NCBI GenBank assembly: GCA_038046385.1
Contig: JBBSWH010000009.1
Span: 1-64,000 of the forward strand
Length of the DNA stretch: 64,000 nt
Reading direction: 5' to 3'
Source: Nanobdellota archaeon
Lineage (GTDB): Archaea > Nanobdellota > Nanobdellia > Woesearchaeales > GW2011-AR4
Shown in pieces: positions 15,401 through 21,017 of this stretch. Numbering within the stretch: position 1 is the stretch's first letter; each line of letters begins with the position of its first letter. The position numbers and the translations under genes are program-made. The notes below the pieces were generated by a model that saw only the letters and a list, made by a program, of their open reading frames with translations, was not told the DNA's origin and did no database searches.

Positions 15401-16952
15401 TTGCAGACTGGCCATTTTGTACACTGTGTGTGATATTAACTTCATTGCTGCTTGTTCCGGAAATATTTACGAAGAGTCTAACTGAGCTCACCTTGGTTAG
15501 ATTATCAGACACATTAACACCCACTTTTACAATCTCCCCAGTTGCCACAGACGAATCACCCGTACTGTTACTTAAGTTACTTAAAACAGGATTGATTTGA
15601 TCAATAGTAAAGTTTATTGTGGCGCTTGTGTTAGTATAACCAGGACTATCAGAGCAATTTACATTCCAGCCATAAGTTCCGTTGGATAAAACTGTGCTGT
15701 TTAAATGGTTGCTACCATTAGTTACGTTTAAATCAGGAATTGCAGCAACAGCAATTCCAGCAGAAGATATGTTAACGGCACAAATTAAGCTTGTGTCGTT
15801 ATTGTCAAACGCTGTGAAATTAAAAGTCATTGTAGCACTTGTCTGGTTGAATAAATCTGCCGGTGCATTCAATGTTATGGGTCCTGGCTTAGTTCTATCT
15901 TCTCCAACAACAAATACCATAGTTGAAGATATAATCTTATTTCCAAGTGAATCGTTTGCCTCGAATGTGAAATTTAAATGTTGATTTAACTGGTCTACAG
16001 GTATTTTATAAGTCAAATTTACAGACTGATAATTATTAACACTTCTCGTAATATTAACTTCATTATTAGAAACTCCTGAAATATTGACAAACAACCTTAC
16101 TGTGCTGACCCCTGTTAAATTATCTGAAACGTTTACTCCAATAGCAACTACTTCTTCAGTTCCTATAACAGAATCTGCTGTACTGTTGCTTAGATTAACA
16201 AATACCGGCGGAATCTGATCAATAGTAAAAGTTCTTGACGCACTAGTGTTTGTATTGCCAACTTCGTCTGAACAGTTTACATTCCATGAATAAGTCCCAT
16301 TAGATAAAACAGTACCATTTACTTGAAGAACGCCGCTCGTTGTGTTGATGTCAGGTATAGATGTAAAAGGCTGCCCTCCAGCTGAAATATTAACATTACA
16401 TTTTTGCAACCTTACATCGATAGCAGTAAAACCAAAAGTCATTATAGAGCTCGTCTGGTTGAACAAGTCTGCTGGGCTGTTTAGACTAATGGTGCCTGGA
16501 GGCGTTGCATCAACTATTAAACTTCTATTACTTGTAAAATTTAAATATTCGCTTCCATCACTCGTGGTTGCGTTGTAGCATCCAACTGCCCAGTTAAATA
16601 AGGCGTCCACTCCAAGCGTAGTGCTAATATGGCTAAAACCTAGGCTACCATTCACAATATTGCTTGTTGAAGTGTTAACTGCTGTTTCCGCCCAAGTTCC
16701 TGTTATGTTGGTCCAGATACTGCAGTTGCTGATGCTTCCATTATCATGGGCGCCATTCCATGTTACATTAAAAGTAAAGTTTGTATTTCTTGAAGTGTTT
16801 ATTGCCCCGTTTGTAGGCGAATTTTGAGTGATAATAAATGCTTGAGCAAATAAAACACTCAAAACAAAAACCAAGACTATAGAAACCAGCAGAGCTATAT
16901 TTATTCTTCCATCTTTAGATAAAAATAAACCTTTCAAACCCTCTTTTTTCAT
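12438..16952 (-). CDS. Large cell-surface glycoprotein with Ig-like repeats, PGF-pre-PGF domain and C-terminal anchor
   Basis: Signal peptide, dense N-x-S/T sequons, poly-Ser/Gly linker, TTPGFSTFAIG, CDDxxDNDGDGLVDxxDxDC motif, TM plus KKK tail. Confidence 0.88.
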   Translation of the reverse strand: MKKEGLKGLFLSKDGRINIALLVSIVLVFVLSVLFAQAFIITQNSPTNGAINTSRNTNFTFNVTWNGAHDNGSISNCSIWTNITGTWAETAVNTSTSNIVNGSLGFSHISTTLGVDALFNWAVGCYNATTSDGSEYLNFTSNRSLIVDATPPGTISLNSPADLFNQTSSIMTFGFTAIDVRLQKCNVNISAGGQPFTSIPDINTTSGVLQVNGTVLSNGTYSWNVNCSDEVGNTNTSASRTFTIDQIPPVFVNLSNSTADSVIGTEEVVAIGVNVSDNLTGVSTVRLFVNISGVSNNEVNITRSVNNYQSVNLTYKIPVDQLNQHLNFTFEANDSLGNKIISSTMVFVVGEDRTKPGPITLNAPADLFNQTSATMTFNFTAFDNNDTSLICAVNISSAGIAVAAIPDLNVTNGSNHLNSTVLSNGTYGWNVNCSDSPGYTNTSATINFTIDQINPVLSNLSNSTGDSSVATGEIVKVGVNVSDNLTKVSSVRLFVNISGTSSNEVNITHSVQNGQSANLSFAIPTNQTNQVLGFIFEVNDSVNNRVNSSAMVFVVGSDGTAPTITLNAPGNGSNTSSATPNFNFTATDNVDSNFLCNVSIDNVKNISNMNVTSGTLQSNTTLPLAQGYHKWNVTCTDNSGNIGESLKYNFTVDLTGPGFTLTSPTNNTNGTSNLSVTVTVADTFTNVTSMQWSSSCSQSGTFSSGAAFFPFGSCTGASLRILTVNATDSLGTSNSTQFFFGIDNTAPTLTIVAPSNGDNYASSLNISGLNASVTDNFLKIGAIGYYLDEDSVKHIRISSAGLGQTASAFYGNVSANLSAGTHTIKFTANDTVGNAVNSSIITITVTGSVNTVGTNLTIRDSNNYNLTNISFFDSTGAKVEGELNTAQTIELFLGTNRTALGGDNGINLTINFNGSAANWNKTDEIYVTLLNTSSTAGRTAARHILNNQTANVVDMLYINRSFSKFLPNNDSYFAKLRLPSLNATNIGGSGTFQIWYFPDESNLASKTSINQCSASLDLSQSLESGLPCWNATNGNRSVDIYVSHFSIIAVVNDSNAPTINVTIPAPIQNVSSFSPNITVSSDAASCSYHMNDSSMPATANRSMDLSGTTCTASSVEHLLNGMYNITFTVVDTSGNINRYLLNFTVSDTTPSNTPNLSRVSTSFSTTSGTMTINGMNESVNATVLYGTSVSSLASVANNVQFNKSKSISISSLTANTTYYFNVSVCDFNGNCAVNGTFNFTTDAASSSSSSSSSSSSSGGGGAVATTSNTQASTAKAWDKIDAGAEAKMSISNSQIAVTEIIIEAKDNLANPEIKVESLKENPLVTAASSKIYQYLQFTKTNLPDASTASITIAFKVQKSWLLSNGVAEADVVLYRYSNSAWNMLPTSILSSDDNNAMYQATTPGFSTFAIGSREGAAPDVIGSREGAAPDVVPVAMVELCDDTLDNDGDGLVDSADSDCQAAVVDDSKADSGKSNSMLMTAIIASIIIVLVLMVYAIIKKKSSK
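12661..12726. repeat. Perfect 33-bp tandem duplication (IGSREGAAPDV x2)
   Basis: acatctggagcagccccttctcttgagcctatt at 12661-12693 and 12694-12726. Confidence 0.95.
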
Positions 16953-17118
16953 TTACACCCTCTATAAAACCCACGTAAAATTGAATTAAAACATAGTCAC
17001 CTTTTATCTTGTATTTAAGCTTTTCGATTAGCATGGAAAAACAGGGATAAAAAGAAGAATGTTCCGGATAAATTACACATCACCATTTGGAGATAACTAT
17101 ATATTATAGTAATAGAGA

Positions 17119-17475
17119 ATGATTTCCAATATGCCTGTCAAAAATTCAACTAATAATAAAATAATCCAAAACAATGCTAAATTCTGCAACAGTGTATTTT
17201 CAAGATTCAAAGGGCTTATGTTCTCAAGAAAACAGAATATTGCTTTAATCTTTAAATTCAGCAGAGAATCAAAAATCGCTTTGCATCAGTGTTTTGTCTT
17301 TTATTCTATTGATGTTTTGTTTCTTGACAAAAACAGAATAGTTGTTGACATAAAAGAAAACTTCAAGCCATTTACGTTTTATACATCTAAAAAGAAAGCC
17401 GTCTATGCAATAGAATTGCCGGAAGGAGCTATTAATCACAGCAAAACCAAGATAGGCGACAGGATAAAGTTCTGA
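17119..17475 (+). CDS. DUF192 family protein
   Basis: RFKGLMF, IDVLFLD, AIELPEG, KIGDRI. Confidence 0.88.
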   Translation: MISNMPVKNSTNNKIIQNNAKFCNSVFSRFKGLMFSRKQNIALIFKFSRESKIALHQCFVFYSIDVLFLDKNRIVVDIKENFKPFTFYTSKKKAVYAIELPEGAINHSKTKIGDRIKF

Positions 17476-17503
17476 ACAACAATAACCACTGGACATCCTC
17501 ACC

Positions 17504-17517
17504 TAAGATATATAAAC
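17504..17517 (+). promoter_or_regulatory. BRE/TATA-like promoter upstream of the fold-back element and nuclease
   Basis: taagatatataaac, about 25 nt before the first stem at 17539. Confidence 0.5.
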
Positions 17518-17538
17518 TAATTCTGCTTCTGAAAACTG

Positions 17539-17718
17539 AAAAGAGAACACGCAAAACTGCCAAATAATGATTACTTGAACAGAGTTCAAGTTCCCAAAAT
17601 CTTTGATTTTTGAGGATTCGCTAAAGCTGAAAATCAATTATGCAGTTTCGCTTAACATGTCAGAAATCGAAGATTTCTGAGCATCATCAAAAATCTTTGA
17701 TTTTTGAGATTCTCTTTT
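17539..17718. repeat. Multi-branched fold-back element (nested stems plus triloop hairpins)
   Basis: Outer stem aaaagagaa/ttctctttt; gcaaaactgc/gcagtttcgc; ataatgatt/aatcaattat; hairpins acttgaac-aga-gttcaagt, aaaatc-ttt-gatttt, tcagaaatc-gaa-gatttctga, tcaaaaatc-ttt-gatttttga. Confidence 0.75.
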
Positions 17719-17726
17719 TACTATAA

Positions 17727-17760
17727 CTCCAAAGTTCCAAAAGCCAGAAACTTTGGAGGT
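17727..17760 (+). promoter_or_regulatory. Hairpin sequestering the nuclease Shine-Dalgarno
   Basis: ctccaaagtt (17727-36) pairs with aactttggag (17749-58), covering GGAG of GGAGGT upstream of ATG 17767. Confidence 0.6.
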
Positions 17761-17766
17761 ATTAAT

Positions 17767-18501
17767 ATGAAAAATCACTTAAAATTGGATGAAAAGAGGG
17801 AGATTGTTAGGGATTTTATCAAAACAAATCCCAACTGTACTTATTTGGATATAAAACGAGGTACTAGGATTAAAGTTGAAAGAATTTATAAAAACATGAG
17901 TGAGGCTTATGAAGATGCAGGCGTAGTATTCTCTAAAAATTTGACTAGGAGAACTTTAATTGAACAGAAAAGAGATGTTATAGCATTTATAAAAAATCAT
18001 CCCAATTGCTCTGTAACCGAAATACAAAAGAATACTGGTGTAAATACTATGAGAATTTTTGGGAGTGTTGTAACTGCATATAAGGAAGCTGGTATCAACT
18101 ACCCAGAAAGGCAAGTGACGTCCGGAGTTATGAACCCTCTCGTTATAAAAAGATGCAACGAATTCGAAAAGAACATAATCAGTGCCTTAAGAGATTTAGG
18201 CGAGGTAATACCCAAAGTTAGGACTCCGGCAGGCATAGTCGATTGCATTTTTATCTACCAAAATAAAAAATTTGTAGTTGAAATTAAGGATTTCAGGGGC
18301 AAAAACAACATAACAATGTATGAGCTAAATCAGCTTGCAAGATATATGAAATCATTGGCTTACAAGAATGGAATCTTAGTGTGCCCAAAAGACAAAATAC
18401 CAAAAAGAAATGCTTGCAGAAACGTTTATATAGACGGCATGGAAATCTCATTCTTGTCCGAAGAGGATTTACGGGGACGTCGTATAAAGGGTTTTCAATA
18501 A
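17767..18501 (+). CDS. PD-(D/E)XK endonuclease with two N-terminal homing-endonuclease-associated-like repeats
   Basis: Two ~60-aa repeats ending RIYKNMSEAYEDAGV and RIFGSVVTAYKEAGI; C-terminal FE...VD...VEIKD...QLARY (Mrr-like); GGAGGT RBS. Confidence 0.75.
   Translation: MKNHLKLDEKREIVRDFIKTNPNCTYLDIKRGTRIKVERIYKNMSEAYEDAGVVFSKNLTRRTLIEQKRDVIAFIKNHPNCSVTEIQKNTGVNTMRIFGSVVTAYKEAGINYPERQVTSGVMNPLVIKRCNEFEKNIISALRDLGEVIPKVRTPAGIVDCIFIYQNKKFVVEIKDFRGKNNITMYELNQLARYMKSLAYKNGILVCPKDKIPKRNACRNVYIDGMEISFLSEEDLRGRRIKGFQ
18418..18433 (+). promoter_or_regulatory. Putative tRNA promoter inside the nuclease ORF
   Basis: agaaacgtttatatag BRE/TATA, about 40 nt upstream of tRNA G1. Confidence 0.55.
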
Positions 18502-18585
18502 TCCGTACAGCCTGGCTATTATCACCGCCTCCAGTTAATTTTTAGGCGTCAGCGGTTAATCGGGGTTCAAATCCTCGCGTCCCCA
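18473..18585 (+). tRNA. trnW: tRNA-Trp(CCA) with two introns (15/16: 18488-18510; 37/38: 18535-18550)
   Basis: Acceptor GGGGACG/CGTCCCC+A; anticodon stem ACCGC/GCGGT with loop CT-CCA-G|A; T arm CGGGG-TTCAAAT-CCTCG; BHB-like motifs at both introns; CCA end not encoded. Confidence 0.88.
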
Positions 18586-18623
18586 CTTTATTTTAAATTA
18601 AATAATAAGAAAAAAAATAAAAT

Positions 18624-21017
18624 CTAATAATAACTTTCCCCAACTTCGCTGTCAGGAATCTCGTCGCTGAAGCTGCCCGATTCAGAGCTTGAAGCACTCC
18701 TTACACCAAAAATAATTCCTGCTGCGCCAAGTATTACCACAAGCACAATCAGCATCGTTTTCAATGTATCCTTGAAAGGGAAAGGGAATACAGATGAGCT
18801 TCCGAGCACATTCAAGTCAAGGGCAACTTTTCCAAGCACCTTGTCAGAGCTTTTCACGGTTGCAATCATATCCTGCTTTCCTGCATTTTCCGAAGATGCG
18901 TAGACTGTTATAGTCTTTGATTCCTGTGATTTTAGTATGAACACATTAGAGTCGCTTAATCTTGCATCTGCATCAGCGTCAAGCAATAAAGTGTAAGTGT
19001 TCGCTTCTGTTCCCTGGTTTTCGAATGTTATCGGATATGCCGCTTCCTTGCCAATATTTGCGCTTTGGCTTGTAACAGGCACTTTGATTACTAACCTATC
19101 TTTTGGAGCGACATTTACCTGGCTCTCAACAATATTCACTGGAACTTCCTTTGATTCTGAATCTGTTCCAAACTGCGAGAATATTTCTACCCTTACAGTA
19201 TAAGCTCCGCTTGGAGTATTCTCCGGAATCTTCAATACAGCCTCTTCCATCGATTCTGAAAAGCTTTTGATATTGCTTATCTGCTTTGTTGAAGCTATCT
19301 CAAGTTCCGGAATGCTAACTCTCATCTTCAGAATTTCTGAAGGAGATACTCCTATGTTCCTAAAACCAACATCAACTACAAGATTCTTTCCTGCGCCGGC
19401 ATTGTCTTCAGGGTTAAGCAGTATTTTTGTGATTACAAACGGGAAATTAGTTCTGCTAACTCTTAGCAAGTATTCTTTTTCTGCAAAATTTCCGTCTTCA
19501 TCCCTTATCTTTATTTTTAATCTTAAGTTGCCGTTTTCTATTTTCCATATTAAAGGGAAGTTAAGCTTCTTTGAAGTGTCCCTGTCCTTTAGCAAGTCGA
19601 ATTTTGAGGTTATATCAGATACAACATCTCCATTCTCAAATACAAGAGTTCCTTCGACAACAGCATCATTCATGTTTTCAAGGGCCGTAAACTTGATTTT
19701 TACATCAAGCTCTTCGTCGTTCTGCGCCAAAGTTATGAAATTGCTCTCATCTTCTATAACAATAATGCTTTCAACTTCAACACCGTCAAATCCTGCATCA
19801 AGGCCTCCGTTTAGTGAGTTGCCGCTTTCCATGACAAGCCCATATGATTTTTCAACAATGCCCTCTTCGGTGTCTGTTATTTTTACAGTAAGCTCAAGAA
19901 GATTGCTGTTCTTTAATGAGTCTATGAGCTGCAAGTTTAGTGTTCTTGAAGAGCTTGCTACTGCATTCAAATCAAAGTTTGCAGTTGAATCTGCAACAAC
20001 AACGCCTGTTGCAACATCTCTTAAAACAGCTTCAACTCTTGCATCATCAAGATCTCCAAGTGCTGTAAAATCAATCACTGCATTGAAATCGTCATTCTCT
20101 TCTATGAAATTTGTGTTTGAAGATGCAACAATCTTATTGTTTACACGAACCCTGTCTATTGATGCATCAAGGCTGTTCATTCCAGTTTTCTGCCTTGTCC
20201 TTAATCCGTAACTCTTTTGCTCTGAACGCCCTATTGCGTCAGATATCTTGACAGTTACATCATAATCATCATCTCTTGTCATTCCGTCAACTAAATTCAA
20301 AAGCATTGCAACGTTCATGCTCTGGTTTTTTGCCAGGTCAAGATTGCTGACTGCATTTGAAACAGTATTTCCTGTTCTTCTTGACCTTAAGTTAGCTTCT
20401 ACAATTGCGTTTTCCAAAGTATCGACTGCTGTAAAATCAATTGATATTGTGAAATTGTTCGCATCATCTACGAGGGTTGTTCTCGATTGGGCAAGCACAT
20501 TAGTATTTGCTGCAACTCTGTCTATTGATACATCAAAAGGAGTTTTTATGTTTGCAAGCGTTTTCTGCACCGCAGGAACATTCCCGAATGTAACAGAATA
20601 TAATTTTTGTTTTAGCACAACATTAGGATAAATCACATTAATCTGAAGATTATAGTTTGAATTATTTGCAAGATTTCCAAGGCTCATATTCAAAGGAACA
20701 TTAGTTTTCTGCATTACTGTTGAGCTGAATGTATCACTAGTCTTTGAAACAGTAAAACCCGTCTTTACATCAGTAAACACAGCCTGCACTCTAATATTAT
20801 TTGTAAATTCCTTGAATGAAGTCAGGTCTATTCCAATTAAAAAAGAGTTTGATATCGGAATGAGGTTTATTCTGTTTTCAGCCACGTCATTGCCGTTTAT
20901 CCTTACTCTGTCAATTGAAGCGTCAGGAGAAACTGGAACTGCAGCTATGGCAAATGCACTAGCCAGAACTGAAAATACAGCCAAAAATACTAACATTCCT
21001 ATTTTTTTGTTTATCAT
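18624..21017 (-). CDS. Secreted, C-terminally anchored surface protein with repeated Ig-like domains (putative S-layer-associated)
   Basis: Signal peptide; about four repeats beginning D(A/V)SIDRV; CARDB-like C-terminal domains; TM plus acidic tail. Confidence 0.8.
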   Translation of the reverse strand: MINKKIGMLVFLAVFSVLASAFAIAAVPVSPDASIDRVRINGNDVAENRINLIPISNSFLIGIDLTSFKEFTNNIRVQAVFTDVKTGFTVSKTSDTFSSTVMQKTNVPLNMSLGNLANNSNYNLQINVIYPNVVLKQKLYSVTFGNVPAVQKTLANIKTPFDVSIDRVAANTNVLAQSRTTLVDDANNFTISIDFTAVDTLENAIVEANLRSRRTGNTVSNAVSNLDLAKNQSMNVAMLLNLVDGMTRDDDYDVTVKISDAIGRSEQKSYGLRTRQKTGMNSLDASIDRVRVNNKIVASSNTNFIEENDDFNAVIDFTALGDLDDARVEAVLRDVATGVVVADSTANFDLNAVASSSRTLNLQLIDSLKNSNLLELTVKITDTEEGIVEKSYGLVMESGNSLNGGLDAGFDGVEVESIIVIEDESNFITLAQNDEELDVKIKFTALENMNDAVVEGTLVFENGDVVSDITSKFDLLKDRDTSKKLNFPLIWKIENGNLRLKIKIRDEDGNFAEKEYLLRVSRTNFPFVITKILLNPEDNAGAGKNLVVDVGFRNIGVSPSEILKMRVSIPELEIASTKQISNIKSFSESMEEAVLKIPENTPSGAYTVRVEIFSQFGTDSESKEVPVNIVESQVNVAPKDRLVIKVPVTSQSANIGKEAAYPITFENQGTEANTYTLLLDADADARLSDSNVFILKSQESKTITVYASSENAGKQDMIATVKSSDKVLGKVALDLNVLGSSSVFPFPFKDTLKTMLIVLVVILGAAGIIFGVRSASSSESGSFSDEIPDSEVGESYY

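What the first reader, a model, noticed from the sequence alone, without database searches (positions are those of the whole stretch)
17504..18585. Candidate tRNA-targeting mobile unit: homing-type nuclease whose stop codon lies inside a non-canonical tRNA intron
Seen in sequence: the nuclease ORF (17767-18501) reads through the putative tRNA-Trp TATA box (18425) and the whole 5' exon (18473-18487). It ends at TAA 18499-18501, inside the 15/16 intron, so an intron-less allele would lack this stop. The protein has two repeats resembling the homing-endonuclease-associated repeat (R.FGS...A...AG) and a PD-(D/E)XK domain. Established: free-standing homing endonucleases can spread together with an adjacent intron that disrupts their target (collaborative homing in phages). 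Inference: the nuclease cuts intron-less trnW alleles and co-converts itself and the intron. This would be a mechanism for gaining non-canonical archaeal tRNA introns. I do not know of such a system being described.
Basis: partly seen in the sequence, partly recalled or inferred. Interest (0 to 1): 0.85.

Follow-up and report, generated by a model that had tools for sequence, protein, structure and literature searches.

The report
Homing-type nuclease gene abutting archaeal tRNA-Trp
A rare nuclease gene of the selfish "homing" kind sits right against the tryptophan tRNA gene of a small groundwater archaeon, as do all its relatives found, and it occurs far more often than expected beside tRNA copies with an unusual extra intron.

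Summary
ORF 17767-18501 (244 aa) runs through a TATA box and 29 nt into a tRNA-Trp(CCA) gene (18473-18585). That gene has a 23-nt intron at 15/16 and a 16-nt canonical intron. The TAA lies in the first intron.

The protein has two HTH-like repeats and a PD-(D/E)XK nuclease domain. It is single-copy here.

All 37 related loci fetched from public contigs abut tRNA-Trp, at 29-77% identity. The gene was found in only 6 of 401 genomes of the order, spread over five families. One copy is a decayed remnant. One variant has a LAGLIDADG domain in place of the nuclease domain. This is the signature of a free-standing homing endonuclease gene aimed at the tRNA-Trp gene.

The stop-in-intron detail is incidental: it holds in 11 of 25 co-oriented loci, and without the intron the ORF ends 7 codons later. 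The link to the intron is real but partial. The nuclease lies beside 5 of 29 intron-bearing and 1 of 205 intron-less tRNA-Trp genes. However, 8 of 28 nuclease loci lack the intron, and 17 of 19 intron-bearing genomes in the genus lack this nuclease.

Cleavage and co-conversion are untested. PF18780 membership was not confirmed.

The parts
17487..17495 (+). CACTGGACA promoter-proximal motif upstream of the nuclease gene's TATA box
   Evidence: Found 32 times in the genome against about 9.6 expected. Most of the 32 listed sites show a TATA-like box just downstream. A similar motif lies upstream of many nuclease homologues.
17505..17517 (+). TATA-box region (AAGATATATAAAC) of the nuclease gene
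   Evidence: Conserved in the shared upstream cassette (alignment). Promoter function is inferred.
17518..17766 (+). Long structured leader shared with other HEG-like genes of the genome. In this copy it carries two 19-nt hairpin repeats (17596-17614, 17690-17708) and a hairpin (17723-17762) that covers the Shine-Dalgarno motif.
   Evidence: blastn segments of 83-97% identity upstream of ORFs on C4, C5 and C6; alignment; repeats. Its role is unknown.
17767..18501 (+). Nuclease ORF, 244 aa
   Evidence: 58 homologues were found, mostly about 244 aa.
17767..18120 (+). N-terminal module: two tandem HTH-like repeats (aa 1-118), the presumed DNA-targeting part
   Evidence: Helical repeats in the model and a weak HTH_24 hit. 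The same module (71-75% identity over 114 aa) is fused to a LAGLIDADG domain in G007/P0056.
18160..18387 (+). PD-(D/E)XK nuclease core (aa 132-207). D159 = 18241-18243; E172-I-K174 = 18280-18288.
18425..18432 (+). TTTATATA, the presumed TATA box of tRNA-Trp, embedded in the ORF (motif RNVYID)
   Evidence: A TATA-like heptamer lies at -52..-34 from tRNA +1 in 29 of 30 co-oriented loci. No TATA-like heptamer at the homologous codons in the 2 convergent loci examined (L038 has an unrelated TTTAAAA about 20 nt downstream).
18473..18585 (+). tRNA-Trp(CCA) gene with two introns. Exons: 18473-18487, 18511-18534, 18551-18585.
   Evidence: ARAGORN after in-silico splicing.
18488..18510 (+). Non-canonical 23-nt intron at tRNA position 15/16, of relaxed H-B-h' type. 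It holds the ORF's stop codon TAA at 18499-18501.
   Evidence: The structural model holds in 37-38 of 40 distinct homologous introns, with different stem sequences.
18535..18550 (+). Canonical 37/38 intron, 16 nt

Best explanation
The ORF is a free-standing homing-endonuclease-type gene. It belongs to a family in Woesearchaeota-type DPANN archaea whose genomic home is the tRNA-Trp gene.

Proposed mechanism. The N-terminal double-HTH module recognises DNA of the tRNA-Trp gene, and the PD-(D/E)XK domain cuts it. Repair from a nuclease-bearing copy drags the nuclease gene along. The gene lies as close to the target as possible: it overlaps the tRNA's 5' end and carries the tRNA's promoter inside its own 3' end. 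In some lineages it instead converges on the tRNA's 3' end.

Self-immunity. The host's own tRNA-Trp gene must resist the enzyme. I infer that the target lies in the D-arm around position 15/16. It would be protected either by the 15/16 intron or by D-arm sequence variants. The intron would therefore tend to travel and persist with the nuclease, in the manner of collaborative homing.

Shown: the anatomy, the family-wide abutment to tRNA-Trp, the sporadic distribution, the decay and domain swap, and the statistical link to the intron.

Inferred: cleavage, the position of the target, immunity and co-conversion.

My odds: about 0.7 that it is a tRNA-Trp-directed selfish nuclease gene, and about 0.35 that it actually spreads the 15/16 intron.
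For: 1. Abutment. All 9 genome loci and all 28 metagenome loci (29-77% identity) carry a tRNA with a CTCCA(G/A) anticodon loop at the ORF's end (32 found by script, 5 by eye; layout). After removing duplicates and adding the window, G140 and G398, there are 28 distinct full-length loci. Of these, 25 are co-oriented and overlap the tRNA's 5' end, and 3 are convergent at its 3' end.

2. Sporadic distribution. One copy in the window's own genome. In the genus, the PD-(D/E)XK gene is at 2 of 27 tRNA-Trp loci. In the order, 8 of 401 genomes match at E<=1e-5. Five are full-length, one is a remnant, and two belong to another, longer family. The six lie in five different families.

3. Decay. G305 keeps only frameshifted C-terminal pieces next to tRNA-Trp, and these include the embedded TATA box. 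L035's tblastn match (719 nt) is not a whole number of codons and in-frame translation across it meets stops: possible frameshift or assembly error.

4. Module swap. G007/P0056 has the same N-terminal 114 aa (71% identity) fused to LAGLIDADG_3. It is convergent on tRNA-Trp and overlaps its 3' end.

5. Active site. D159, E172 and K174 are invariant in 15 sequences. The fold matches PD-(D/E)XK nucleases.

6. Element boundary at tRNA +1. Genomes without the nuclease have a different, conserved native promoter. Loci with the nuclease have a TATA box at about -48 inside the ORF (29 of 30 loci). In the genus, the two loci where the tRNA is inverted relative to DUF192 are both nuclease-bearing.

7. 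Intron link. In the order sample the nuclease lies beside 5 of 29 intron-bearing tRNA-Trp genes and 1 of 205 intron-less ones (Fisher p=1.2e-4).

8. D-arm variants. None of the 8 nuclease loci without the intron has the common D-arm string GTATAACCTGGCTA. By my own count by eye, 73 of 135 listed intron-less rows have it.

9. Independent sample. A contig from a second study bridges ORF, tRNA and the downstream gene without a single difference.
Against: - No biochemical evidence exists, and no nuclease-less allele of this same population was seen. Logan contigs drop rare variants.
- The intron is far commoner than the nuclease in the genus: 19 of 25 genomes carry it, and 2 carry the PD-(D/E)XK gene. 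The nuclease-less intron-bearing loci keep the native promoter and show no ORF remnant. They are therefore not simple 'nuclease lost' states.
- Among 22 intron-bearing loci of the order without the gene, only one weak possible remnant was seen (G410, E=7e-4, partly explained by the tRNA-coded tail).
- Intron-less and intron-bearing states are interleaved on the nuclease tree. Examples are L045/L036 and L047/L055.
- The G000-G015 nuclease identity (77%) is about the same as that of MCM (80%), so it does not by itself show recent transfer.
- The own protein's Pfam scores are below cut-off.
- The D-arm-variant argument is post hoc, rests on small numbers, and includes two close relatives (L039, L067).
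- The Fisher test ignores relatedness and the limits of pattern detection. Only 234 of 401 genomes could be typed.
Confidence: 0.6

Rival explanations
1. It is a vertically inherited host gene. It would be a tRNA-Trp-linked DNA-binding nuclease or regulator with some cellular role, kept in old synteny with DUF192 and tRNA-Trp and lost in most lineages. The overlap with the tRNA would simply reflect genome compaction.
For: The DUF192/tRNA-Trp neighbourhood is old and is shared by many nuclease loci. Homologues keep their length and catalytic residues. The G000-G015 identity (77%) is similar to that of MCM (80%). The embedded tRNA promoter gives the 3' end of the gene a host function.
Against: Presence in 6 of 401 genomes of the order, spread over five families, would require very many independent losses. 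The gene can sit at either end of the tRNA, and in either orientation relative to DUF192. The nuclease domain is swapped for LAGLIDADG on the same N-terminal module. The native promoter is replaced rather than shared.
Confidence: 0.13
2. It is a homing-type nuclease tied to tRNA-Trp, but its target is not the 15/16 site and the intron plays no part. The excess of intron-bearing neighbours would come from shared ancestry or from the limits of detection.
For: 8 of 28 loci lack the intron. The stop position varies. Intron-bearing genomes in the genus mostly lack the nuclease and keep native promoters. A second HEG type (LAGLIDADG without the HTH module) sits at the tRNA's 3' end beside both kinds of allele. 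It was found complete in 3 and partial in 1 of 22 intron-bearing loci, and complete in 1 and partial in 1 of 40 intron-less loci.
Against: 5 of 29 against 1 of 205, across five families. All 8 intron-less nuclease loci have non-consensus D-arms. Co-oriented copies lie within 15 nt of the intron site.
Confidence: 0.2
3. It is a defence or restriction-type (Mrr-like) nuclease, or the border gene of a larger element integrated at tRNA-Trp.
For: Weak Mrr_cat, NERD and PDDEXK_9 matches. Foldseek hits include McrC and FokI. tRNA genes are common integration sites; this is general knowledge, and integration of mobile elements at tRNA genes is mentioned in PMC4033280 (passage seen).
Against: The insert between DUF192 and the tRNA is a single gene. 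No ORF with integrase features and no tRNA-fragment duplicate was noticed in 16000-20500 (no integrase family search was run). Relatives show the same single-gene layout. No partner methylase or ATPase gene was seen among the neighbours examined.
Confidence: 0.05

Closest known systems
Phage T4 SegB (free-standing GIY-YIG homing endonuclease in the T4 tRNA gene cluster; PMC2330249, title and start of abstract as printed in the search listing)
   Same: A free-standing homing-type nuclease gene placed among or next to tRNA genes, whose activity favours inheritance of the tRNA gene region that carries it.
   Different: SegB belongs to a phage, not a cell, and to the GIY-YIG family, not PD-(D/E)XK. 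No tRNA intron is involved and there is no ORF/tRNA overlap. Activity here is untested.
Collaborative homing and trans homing in phages (a free-standing endonuclease plus an endonuclease-less group I intron; Discussion passages of PMC2790892; F-CphI abstract in PMC6083498, listing)
   Same: A free-standing nuclease gene lies next to an intron-bearing gene. The intron interrupts the presumed target, and its closeness would allow co-conversion.
   Different: Those introns are self-splicing group I introns in phage protein-coding genes. Here the intron is a 17-32-nt protein-spliced BHB-type intron in an archaeal tRNA. The link here is statistical only (5 of 29 against 1 of 205), and 8 of 28 loci lack the intron.
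I-Ssp6803I, the PD-(D/E)XK homing endonuclease of cyanobacteria (passages of PMC3384342). That it lies in a tRNA-fMet group I intron is recalled, not seen here.
   Same: A PD-(D/E)XK fold used for homing, and a tRNA gene as home.
   Different: It is intron-encoded, a small tetramer without HTH repeats, and bacterial. No sequence match was found (one search lists no such chain).
Archaeal LAGLIDADG homing endonucleases in rRNA introns (PMC6125680, passages)
   Same: Homing endonuclease genes occur in Woesearchaeota and related DPANN archaea and target stable-RNA genes. A LAGLIDADG variant of the present family exists.
   Different: Those are encoded inside rRNA introns. These genes are free-standing and flank a tRNA gene.
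tRNA intron 'transposition' in Thermoproteales, and the idea that disrupted tRNA genes hinder mobile elements (Fujishima 2010; Randau and Soll 2008; both as cited in passages of PMC4033280)
   Same: Both concern how non-canonical archaeal tRNA introns are gained, and whether they protect tRNA genes from mobile DNA.
   Different: In the passages I saw, no nuclease was linked to such introns ('homing' occurs 0 times in that review).

Membership tests
PD-(D/E)XK nuclease superfamily (Mrr_cat / PDDEXK_9-like) | Profile match above the family's curated cut-off | tested here: inconclusive
   For the own protein: PDDEXK_9 19.4 bits (cut-off 25.5) and Mrr_cat 18.9 bits (cut-off 21). Seven of the 58 homologues carry precomputed PF04471 and one PF08011.
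PD-(D/E)XK nuclease superfamily (Mrr_cat / PDDEXK_9-like) | Catalytic D ... (D/E)-X-K residues conserved | tested here: met
   D159, E172 and K174 (and E134) are invariant in 15 sequences. The codons were checked in the window.
PD-(D/E)XK nuclease superfamily (Mrr_cat / PDDEXK_9-like) | Restriction-endonuclease-like alpha/beta fold | tested here: met
   The model has pLDDT 81.5 with order helix, three strands, helix, strand. The Foldseek hits listed at the top (ranks 1-24) are PD-(D/E)XK-fold nucleases or proteins that contain such a domain, such as McrC, Bax1, FokI, Hjc, the R2 protein and Can2. E-values are only 1e-3 to 1e-2.
Homing endonuclease genes (functional class) | Site-specific cleavage of the allele that lacks the gene | not testable with these tools
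   Needs enzyme assays.
Homing endonuclease genes (functional class) | Sporadic distribution among close relatives | tested here: met
   2 of 27 tRNA-Trp loci in the genus. 6 of 401 genomes of the order, in five families.
Homing endonuclease genes (functional class) | Always at the same conserved genomic site | tested here: met
   37 of 37 fetched loci abut tRNA-Trp, as do G140, G398 and the G305 remnant.
Homing endonuclease genes (functional class) | Degenerate copies (gain and decay cycle) | tested here: met
   G305 has frameshifted C-terminal remnants. L035's tblastn match is not a whole number of codons (possible frameshift or assembly error).
Pfam PF18780 (HNH_repeat, homing endonuclease associated repeat) | Match to the family profile | tested here: not met
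   No hit at E<=10 for either repeat (at E<=1). The profile run over the whole genome does not hit this gene. The ESM Atlas lists PF18780 clusters at score 0.79, which is only a lead.
Collaborative homing (free-standing nuclease plus intron) | Nuclease gene adjacent to an intron that interrupts a conserved gene | tested here: met
   The intron starts 15 nt into the tRNA that the ORF overlaps.
Collaborative homing (free-standing nuclease plus intron) | Nuclease and intron occur together across genomes | tested here: inconclusive
   Enriched in the order sample: 5 of 29 against 1 of 205. However, 8 of 28 nuclease loci lack the intron, and 17 of the 19 intron-bearing genus genomes lack this nuclease.
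Collaborative homing (free-standing nuclease plus intron) | [quoted passage not shown] | not testable with these tools
   There is only the indirect D-arm-variant pattern: 0 of 8 against 73 of 135.
Archaeal BHB-type tRNA intron | Removal restores a standard cloverleaf | tested here: met
   ARAGORN calls tRNA-Trp only after 18488-18510 is removed.
Archaeal BHB-type tRNA intron | Helix, 3-nt bulge, helix geometry at the splice sites, kept by compensating changes | tested here: met
   The 4-bp helix between D-stem GUAU and intron GUAC is intact in 37 of 40 distinct introns. The inner helix has at least 3 bp in 38 of 40, with unrelated stem sequences. No outer exon-exon helix was seen by my own reading of the window's pre-tRNA (not tested by a call), so this is the relaxed H-B-h' form.
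Archaeal BHB-type tRNA intron | Splicing endonuclease encoded by the organism; splicing observed | tested here: inconclusive
   An EndA domain (PF01974, 97.5 bits) is present in the genome. No RNA run was listed, so splicing itself was not observed.

The most novel reading that the evidence does not exclude
Free-standing homing endonucleases drive the gain and spread of non-canonical, protein-spliced (BHB-type) introns in archaeal tRNA genes. The nuclease would cut the uninterrupted D-arm DNA of tRNA-Trp, and repair would copy in both the nuclease gene and a 15/16 intron that makes the gene uncuttable. After the nuclease decays, the intron stays behind.

More broadly, the heavily interrupted tRNA genes of these DPANN archaea would record an arms race with a guild of tRNA-flanking homing endonucleases. 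tRNA-Trp has up to four introns in this genus. The guild includes the PD-(D/E)XK gene on the 5' side of tRNA-Trp and LAGLIDADG genes on its 3' side. Others lie beside tRNA-Cys, Ile, His and a probable tRNA-Gly in this same genome.
Probability: 0.3. Interest if true: 0.9.

Novelty: new variant of a known kind. Interest (0 to 1): 0.72.

Why it matters
How archaeal tRNA genes acquire introns at non-canonical positions is an open question. The passages I read offer sequence-similarity evidence for intron 'transposition', and the idea that disrupted tRNA genes resist mobile DNA (PMC4033280). Neither names an enzyme.

This family gives a concrete, testable candidate. It is a sporadic nuclease gene that is always tied to one tRNA gene. 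It is forty-fold enriched beside copies with one particular intron, and it has a swappable nuclease module.

If the enzyme cuts intron-less tRNA-Trp DNA and spares intron-bearing DNA, it would extend collaborative homing from phage group I introns to protein-spliced archaeal introns. It would also give a mechanism for intron gain. If it does not, it is still the first family I could find, in the four literature searches listed, of cellular archaeal free-standing homing-type genes with a tRNA gene as home. It would also be a possible source of a long-target DNA-binding module.

Tried and rejected
Annotation tools. ARAGORN and Rfam on the raw window found no tRNA. The only sign was a tmRNA-model match at 18473-18588, far below threshold (15.1 bits, E=0.0016). 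The tRNA appeared only after in-silico splicing.

PF18780. No HMM hit. The profile search against PDB sequences gave nothing useful (best hit FapR, E=0.056).

'The stop codon needs the intron': rejected.

'The ORF tail LRGR.. is a conserved protein motif': rejected. It is the translation of the tRNA acceptor stem. In two loci the frame differs (..GGVV*), and in convergent loci the tail is the antisense of the T-arm.

'The 3' end of the ORF is the native tRNA upstream region read through': rejected. Nuclease-less relatives have a different, conserved promoter.

'A displaced tRNA 5' fragment lies upstream of the ORF, as at integration sites': none was seen in 17476-17766.

Recent transfer between G000 and G015. 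MCM identity (80%) is about equal to nuclease identity (77%), so there is no verdict. DUF192 is only 54% identical but is short.

Nuclease remnants beside intron-bearing, nuclease-less tRNA-Trp genes. Of 22 loci fetched, none is convincing. G410 is weak (E=7e-4), and most short hits are only the tRNA-coded tails.

LAGLIDADG genes at the tRNA 3' end against intron state. They were found complete in 3 and partial in 1 of 22 intron-bearing loci, and complete in 1 and partial in 1 of 40 control loci. There is no clear difference.

Sequencing runs. No RNA holder is listed. Laid Logan contigs show no joint that skips the nuclease. The joints listed at 17534-17725 come from other copies of the shared leader cassette.

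Weak longer relatives. G094, G266, G023 and G006 (frames of 408-447 aa, 22-30% identity) have no tRNA-Trp in the stretches held. I left them out of the family counts.

Rows dropped before counts:
- Duplicates L046, L050, L054, L059, L061, L066 and L068.
- Partial ORFs L041, L058, L064, L065 and L069, which are counted apart.
- The spurious pattern row G434:C14.
- G056 and G357, which were not fetched.

Literature. Papers describing such a system were sought and none turned up. Supplements were not consulted.

Unpublished genomes. The tallies include genomes flagged as unpublished: G357 (one of the 29 intron-bearing) and G377, G225, G287, G250, G174 and G163 (among the listed intron-less rows). 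G415, G345, G379, G411 and G154 were also flagged and scored a match. Their rows were not listed, and by exclusion they count among the 205 intron-less genomes. No DNA was fetched from any of them. Leaving them all out changes 29 to 28 and lowers 205 by eleven.
Full report
**What is in the window.**
The stretch 17487-18585 holds one compact unit on the + strand. It begins with a promoter region: the motif CACTGGACA at 17487, then AAGATATATAAAC at 17505. A leader of about 250 nt follows. Next comes ORF 17767-18501, with GGAGG seven bases before the ATG. Last is a tRNA gene at 18473-18585 that the ORF overlaps by 29 nt. Upstream lies a DUF192 gene (17119-17475; Pfam E=1e-15). Downstream, on the other strand, lies a 797-aa surface-type protein gene.

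**The tRNA.**
ARAGORN and Rfam report no tRNA anywhere in the 64-kb window. A permissive Rfam search gives only a tmRNA-model match, far below threshold, at 18473-18588. When 18488-18510 is removed in silico, ARAGORN calls a normal 75-nt tRNA-Trp(CCA). It also carries a 16-nt canonical intron at 18535-18550. Removing the canonical intron alone gives nothing.

The organism clearly uses many tRNA introns. With introns allowed, ARAGORN finds only 24 tRNAs in the 1.28-Mb, 85%-complete genome, and 19 of them are interrupted. A splicing-endonuclease domain is encoded (PF01974, 97.5 bits).

**The intron is structured.**
I tested a relaxed bulge-helix-bulge model. The D-stem 5' strand (GUAU) pairs with GUAC near the intron's 3' end. 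A 3-nt bulge holds the 5' splice site. An inner hairpin follows. Among 40 distinct homologous introns from stored loci, the 4-bp helix is intact in 37. The inner helix has at least 3 contiguous pairs in 38. The stem sequences are unrelated from one intron to another (for example GGA/UCC, CCAUC/GAUGG, UCAUCUUC/GAAGAUGA). No outer exon-exon helix was seen by my own reading of the window's pre-tRNA (not tested by a call), so this is the H-B-h' form.

**The protein.**
The first 118 residues form two HTH-like repeats. These appear as helical repeats in the model and give a weak HTH_24 hit. The C-terminal part is a PD-(D/E)XK nuclease domain.
- Pfam matches are below cut-off for this protein (PDDEXK_9, Mrr_cat and NERD at E about 1e-3). 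Seven homologues carry precomputed PF04471.
- D159, E172 and K174 are invariant in 15 sequences.
- The AlphaFold model (pLDDT 81.5) matches McrC, Bax1, FokI, Hjc and similar PD-(D/E)XK-fold nucleases.
The ESM Atlas does list PF18780 clusters for the N-terminal part at 0.79, which by the tool's own calibration is only a lead.

**Relatives always abut tRNA-Trp.**
The protein has 58 database relatives. Most are about 244 aa long and 47-77% identical, and they come from Woesearchaeota-type MAGs. In the alignment the C-terminal tail '..SEEDLRGRSI' looked conserved. It is in fact the translation of the tRNA's acceptor stem.

DNA confirms this. The 9 loci from species-representative genomes and the 28 loci from metagenome contigs all carry a tRNA with a CTCCA(G/A) anticodon loop at the ORF's end. 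That makes 37 of 37 (32 by script, the other 5 by eye; layout). G140 and G398, found by a profile search of the order, show the same.

After removing duplicates there are 28 distinct full-length loci. Of these, 25 are co-oriented and run into the tRNA's 5' end. Three are convergent at its 3' end. The tRNA's TATA box sits inside the ORF at a fixed distance. A TATA-like heptamer lies at -52..-34 in 29 of 30 co-oriented loci. It is encoded by the motif RN(I/V)YI(D/E), and there is no TATA-like heptamer at the same codons of two convergent loci.

**The gene is sporadic, decays and swaps modules.**
- It is single-copy in the window's own genome.
- In the genus, 27 tRNA-Trp loci from 25 genomes were examined with 1.5-kb flanks. 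Two carry the gene: the window's genome and G015, at 77% identity.
- In an even sample of 401 genomes of the order (257 genera), a profile of the family matches 8 at E<=1e-5. Five are full-length (G000, G140, G408, G339, G398). G305 holds two frameshifted C-terminal pieces next to its tRNA-Trp, and these still include the embedded TATA box. Two (G094, G266) belong to a longer, weakly related family with no tRNA-Trp nearby. The six family members lie in five different taxonomic families.
- L035's tblastn match is not a whole number of codons, so it may be frameshifted or misassembled.
- In G007 the same N-terminal 114 residues (71% identity) are fused to a LAGLIDADG_3 domain. That gene converges on tRNA-Trp and overlaps its 3' end in antisense.

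Together these features are what a free-standing homing endonuclease gene looks like in comparative data. Its shared N-terminal module would be aimed at the tRNA-Trp gene.

**Where the element ends.**
Genus genomes without the gene share a native promoter (AACAACAATCTTTAAATAACG, at roughly -45 to -25). They also share the backbone DUF192(+), small membrane protein(-), tRNA-Trp(+). Loci with the nuclease have no trace of that promoter between the ORF and the tRNA. The junction therefore lies at or inside the tRNA.

In G015 an inverted remnant of the native promoter lies downstream of the tRNA. G015 and G007 are the only two genus loci where the tRNA is inverted relative to DUF192. In the window the membrane-protein gene is missing, and it is not found elsewhere in the genome. 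Every nuclease-bearing locus in the genus is thus rearranged right at the tRNA.

**The stop codon.**
The stop lies in the 15/16 intron in 11 of the 25 co-oriented loci, which is 11 of the 17 that have the intron. Elsewhere it varies.
- It is the UAA formed by tRNA positions 13-15 in L037, L039, L062 and L067.
- It lies in the exon-2 D-loop or D-stem in L052, L055, L056 and L076.
- It lies near position 26/27 in L036.
- It lies in the canonical intron in L035, L040, L044 and L063.
- It is beyond the contig end in L057.

In the window, deleting the intron moves the stop only 7 codons on (251 aa). The overlap is a by-product of the gene being pressed against the tRNA. It is not a device.

**The intron link.**
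Within the genus the intron looks independent of the nuclease. 19 of 25 genomes carry it and 6 lack it, yet the PD-(D/E)XK gene is present in 2 and the LAGLIDADG fusion in 1.

At order level the picture changes. Two pattern scans type tRNA-Trp in 234 of the 401 genomes: 205 without the intron and 29 with it. One spurious row was dropped, and G408 was added from its locus. The intron-bearing genomes are scattered over more than 20 families. The nuclease or its remnant sits beside 5 of the 29 (G000, G140, G408, G339, G305) and beside 1 of the 205 (G398). The odds ratio is 42 and Fisher p=1.2e-4. Relatedness is ignored, and 167 genomes could not be typed.

Across all distinct nuclease loci, 20 of 28 have the intron. 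The 8 without it are spread over the nuclease tree. None of the 8 has the commonest D-arm string GTATAACCTGGCTA. By my own count by eye, 73 of 135 listed intron-less rows have it. This fits the expectation that a nuclease-bearing genome must have an uncuttable target, either interrupted or mutated. It points to the D-arm as the target. The argument is post hoc and the numbers are small.

**Points against co-mobility.**
- Nuclease-less intron-bearing loci keep native promoters.
- Only one weak possible remnant was found among 22 such loci of the order.
- A contig from an independent study reproduces the ORF-tRNA junction exactly, but no nuclease-less joint was seen.

**A wider guild.**
The 291-nt spacer upstream of the ORF is a mosaic of a promoter-plus-leader cassette. 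The same cassette precedes other nuclease-type genes of this genome. Pfam confirms LAGLIDADG_3 in three of them, and a fourth carries a LAGLIDADG-like motif but has no Pfam hit. Their positions relative to tRNA genes are:
- the LAGLIDADG_3 gene at C5:89981-90691 ends on tRNA-Cys;
- the gene with the LAGLIDADG-like motif at C4:57183-57971 converges on tRNA-Ile;
- the LAGLIDADG_3 gene at C10:6171-7010 runs antisense through what reads as a tRNA-Gly;
- the LAGLIDADG_3 gene at C1:60315-60938 follows tRNA-His.

LAGLIDADG genes without the HTH module also sit convergent at the 3' end of tRNA-Trp in other genomes. They are complete in G202, G121 and G234 and partial in G126, out of 22 intron-bearing loci. 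They are complete in G426 and partial in G033, out of 40 intron-less control loci. tRNA genes of this lineage are thus common homes for homing-type genes.

**Comparison with what is known.**
- Phage T4 SegB is a free-standing homing endonuclease in a tRNA gene cluster (PMC2330249, start of the abstract seen in the listing).
- Collaborative homing and trans homing pair a free-standing nuclease with a neighbouring group I intron (PMC2790892, Discussion passages).
- I-Ssp6803I shows that the PD-(D/E)XK fold can serve homing (PMC3384342, passages).
- Archaeal LAGLIDADG genes are known inside rRNA introns, including in Woesearchaeota (PMC6125680, passages).

Four full-text searches turned up no archaeal free-standing nuclease family tied to a tRNA gene or to a BHB intron. 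A 2014 review of tRNA gene diversity does not contain the word 'homing'. I therefore file this as a new variant of a known kind.

**Verdict.**
The locus is very probably a tRNA-Trp-directed homing-type nuclease gene. Its stop in the intron is incidental. Its association with the 15/16 intron is statistically real at order level but incomplete. Cleavage, the target position and co-conversion remain to be shown.

Noticed in passing
window 17476-17766; also G000:C5:89793-89972, C4:45518-45699, C4:56994-57175, C4:35084-35196, C6:49880-49942: A cassette of about 180 nt precedes at least six different nuclease-type genes of this genome. It comprises a promoter and a long structured leader, including a hairpin that covers the Shine-Dalgarno motif. 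It is also seen upstream of the nuclease in G015, L042, L035 and L056. No Rfam family matches it. It could be a shared regulatory RNA or a recombination module.
   Followed up: partly
window 17487-17495 and 31 other sites in G000: The motif CACTGGACA occurs 32 times against about 9.6 expected. Most of the listed sites show a TATA-like box just downstream. By my reading of the N-termini (no Pfam run), the genes that follow include MCM, a XerC-like recombinase, a Cas4-like nuclease, toxin-antitoxin-like genes and the HEG-like genes. It looks like a regulon operator.
   Followed up: partly
G000:C5:89981-90691, C4:57183-57971, C10:6171-7010, C1:60315-60938 (outside the window): Three Pfam-confirmed LAGLIDADG_3 genes (C5, C10, C1) and one with a LAGLIDADG-like motif but no Pfam hit (C4) abut or overlap tRNA genes in the same genome. 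The tRNAs are tRNA-Cys, tRNA-Ile (convergent), a probable tRNA-Gly (read antisense, not called by ARAGORN) and tRNA-His.
   Followed up: partly
L006-L032 (genus tRNA-Trp loci): tRNA-Trp genes of the genus carry up to four introns. These are at 15/16, at the canonical position (about 50 nt, with what look like box C/D-type motifs, a reading from memory of the Haloferax case), in the variable loop, and in the T-loop. The window's copy has only two, and its canonical intron is shrunk to 16 nt.
   Followed up: no
genus genomes, MCM gene: In many genus members the MCM match is split in two within open frames of 1063-1252 aa. The breaks fall near residues 327 and 409. This suggests inteins at two sites, absent from the window's genome.
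   Followed up: no
L088, L093, L109, L117 (G202, G121, G234, G426): LAGLIDADG genes without the HTH module converge on the 3' end of tRNA-Trp. Two of them read antisense into or through the tRNA.
   Followed up: partly
G000:C4:35249-36355; G094, G266, G023, G006: A weakly related, longer family combines HTH repeats with an Mrr-like nuclease domain. Frames are 408-447 aa; in G000 it is split into two ORFs. In G000 it is preceded by the same cassette, but it is not next to tRNA-Trp.
   Followed up: partly
whole window and genome: Standard tRNA finders see no tRNA in this 64-kb window. They find only 24 tRNAs in the genome even with introns allowed. Many tRNA genes are probably hidden by non-canonical introns, so completeness measures based on tRNAs will be too low for this lineage.
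   Followed up: no
L035 (contig titled as an uncultured Methanosarcinales MAG): A Woesearchaeota-type nuclease / tRNA-Trp / DUF192 locus sits on a contig binned under another order, which is probably a binning error. Its tblastn match is not a whole number of codons, so the copy may be frameshifted.
   Followed up: no
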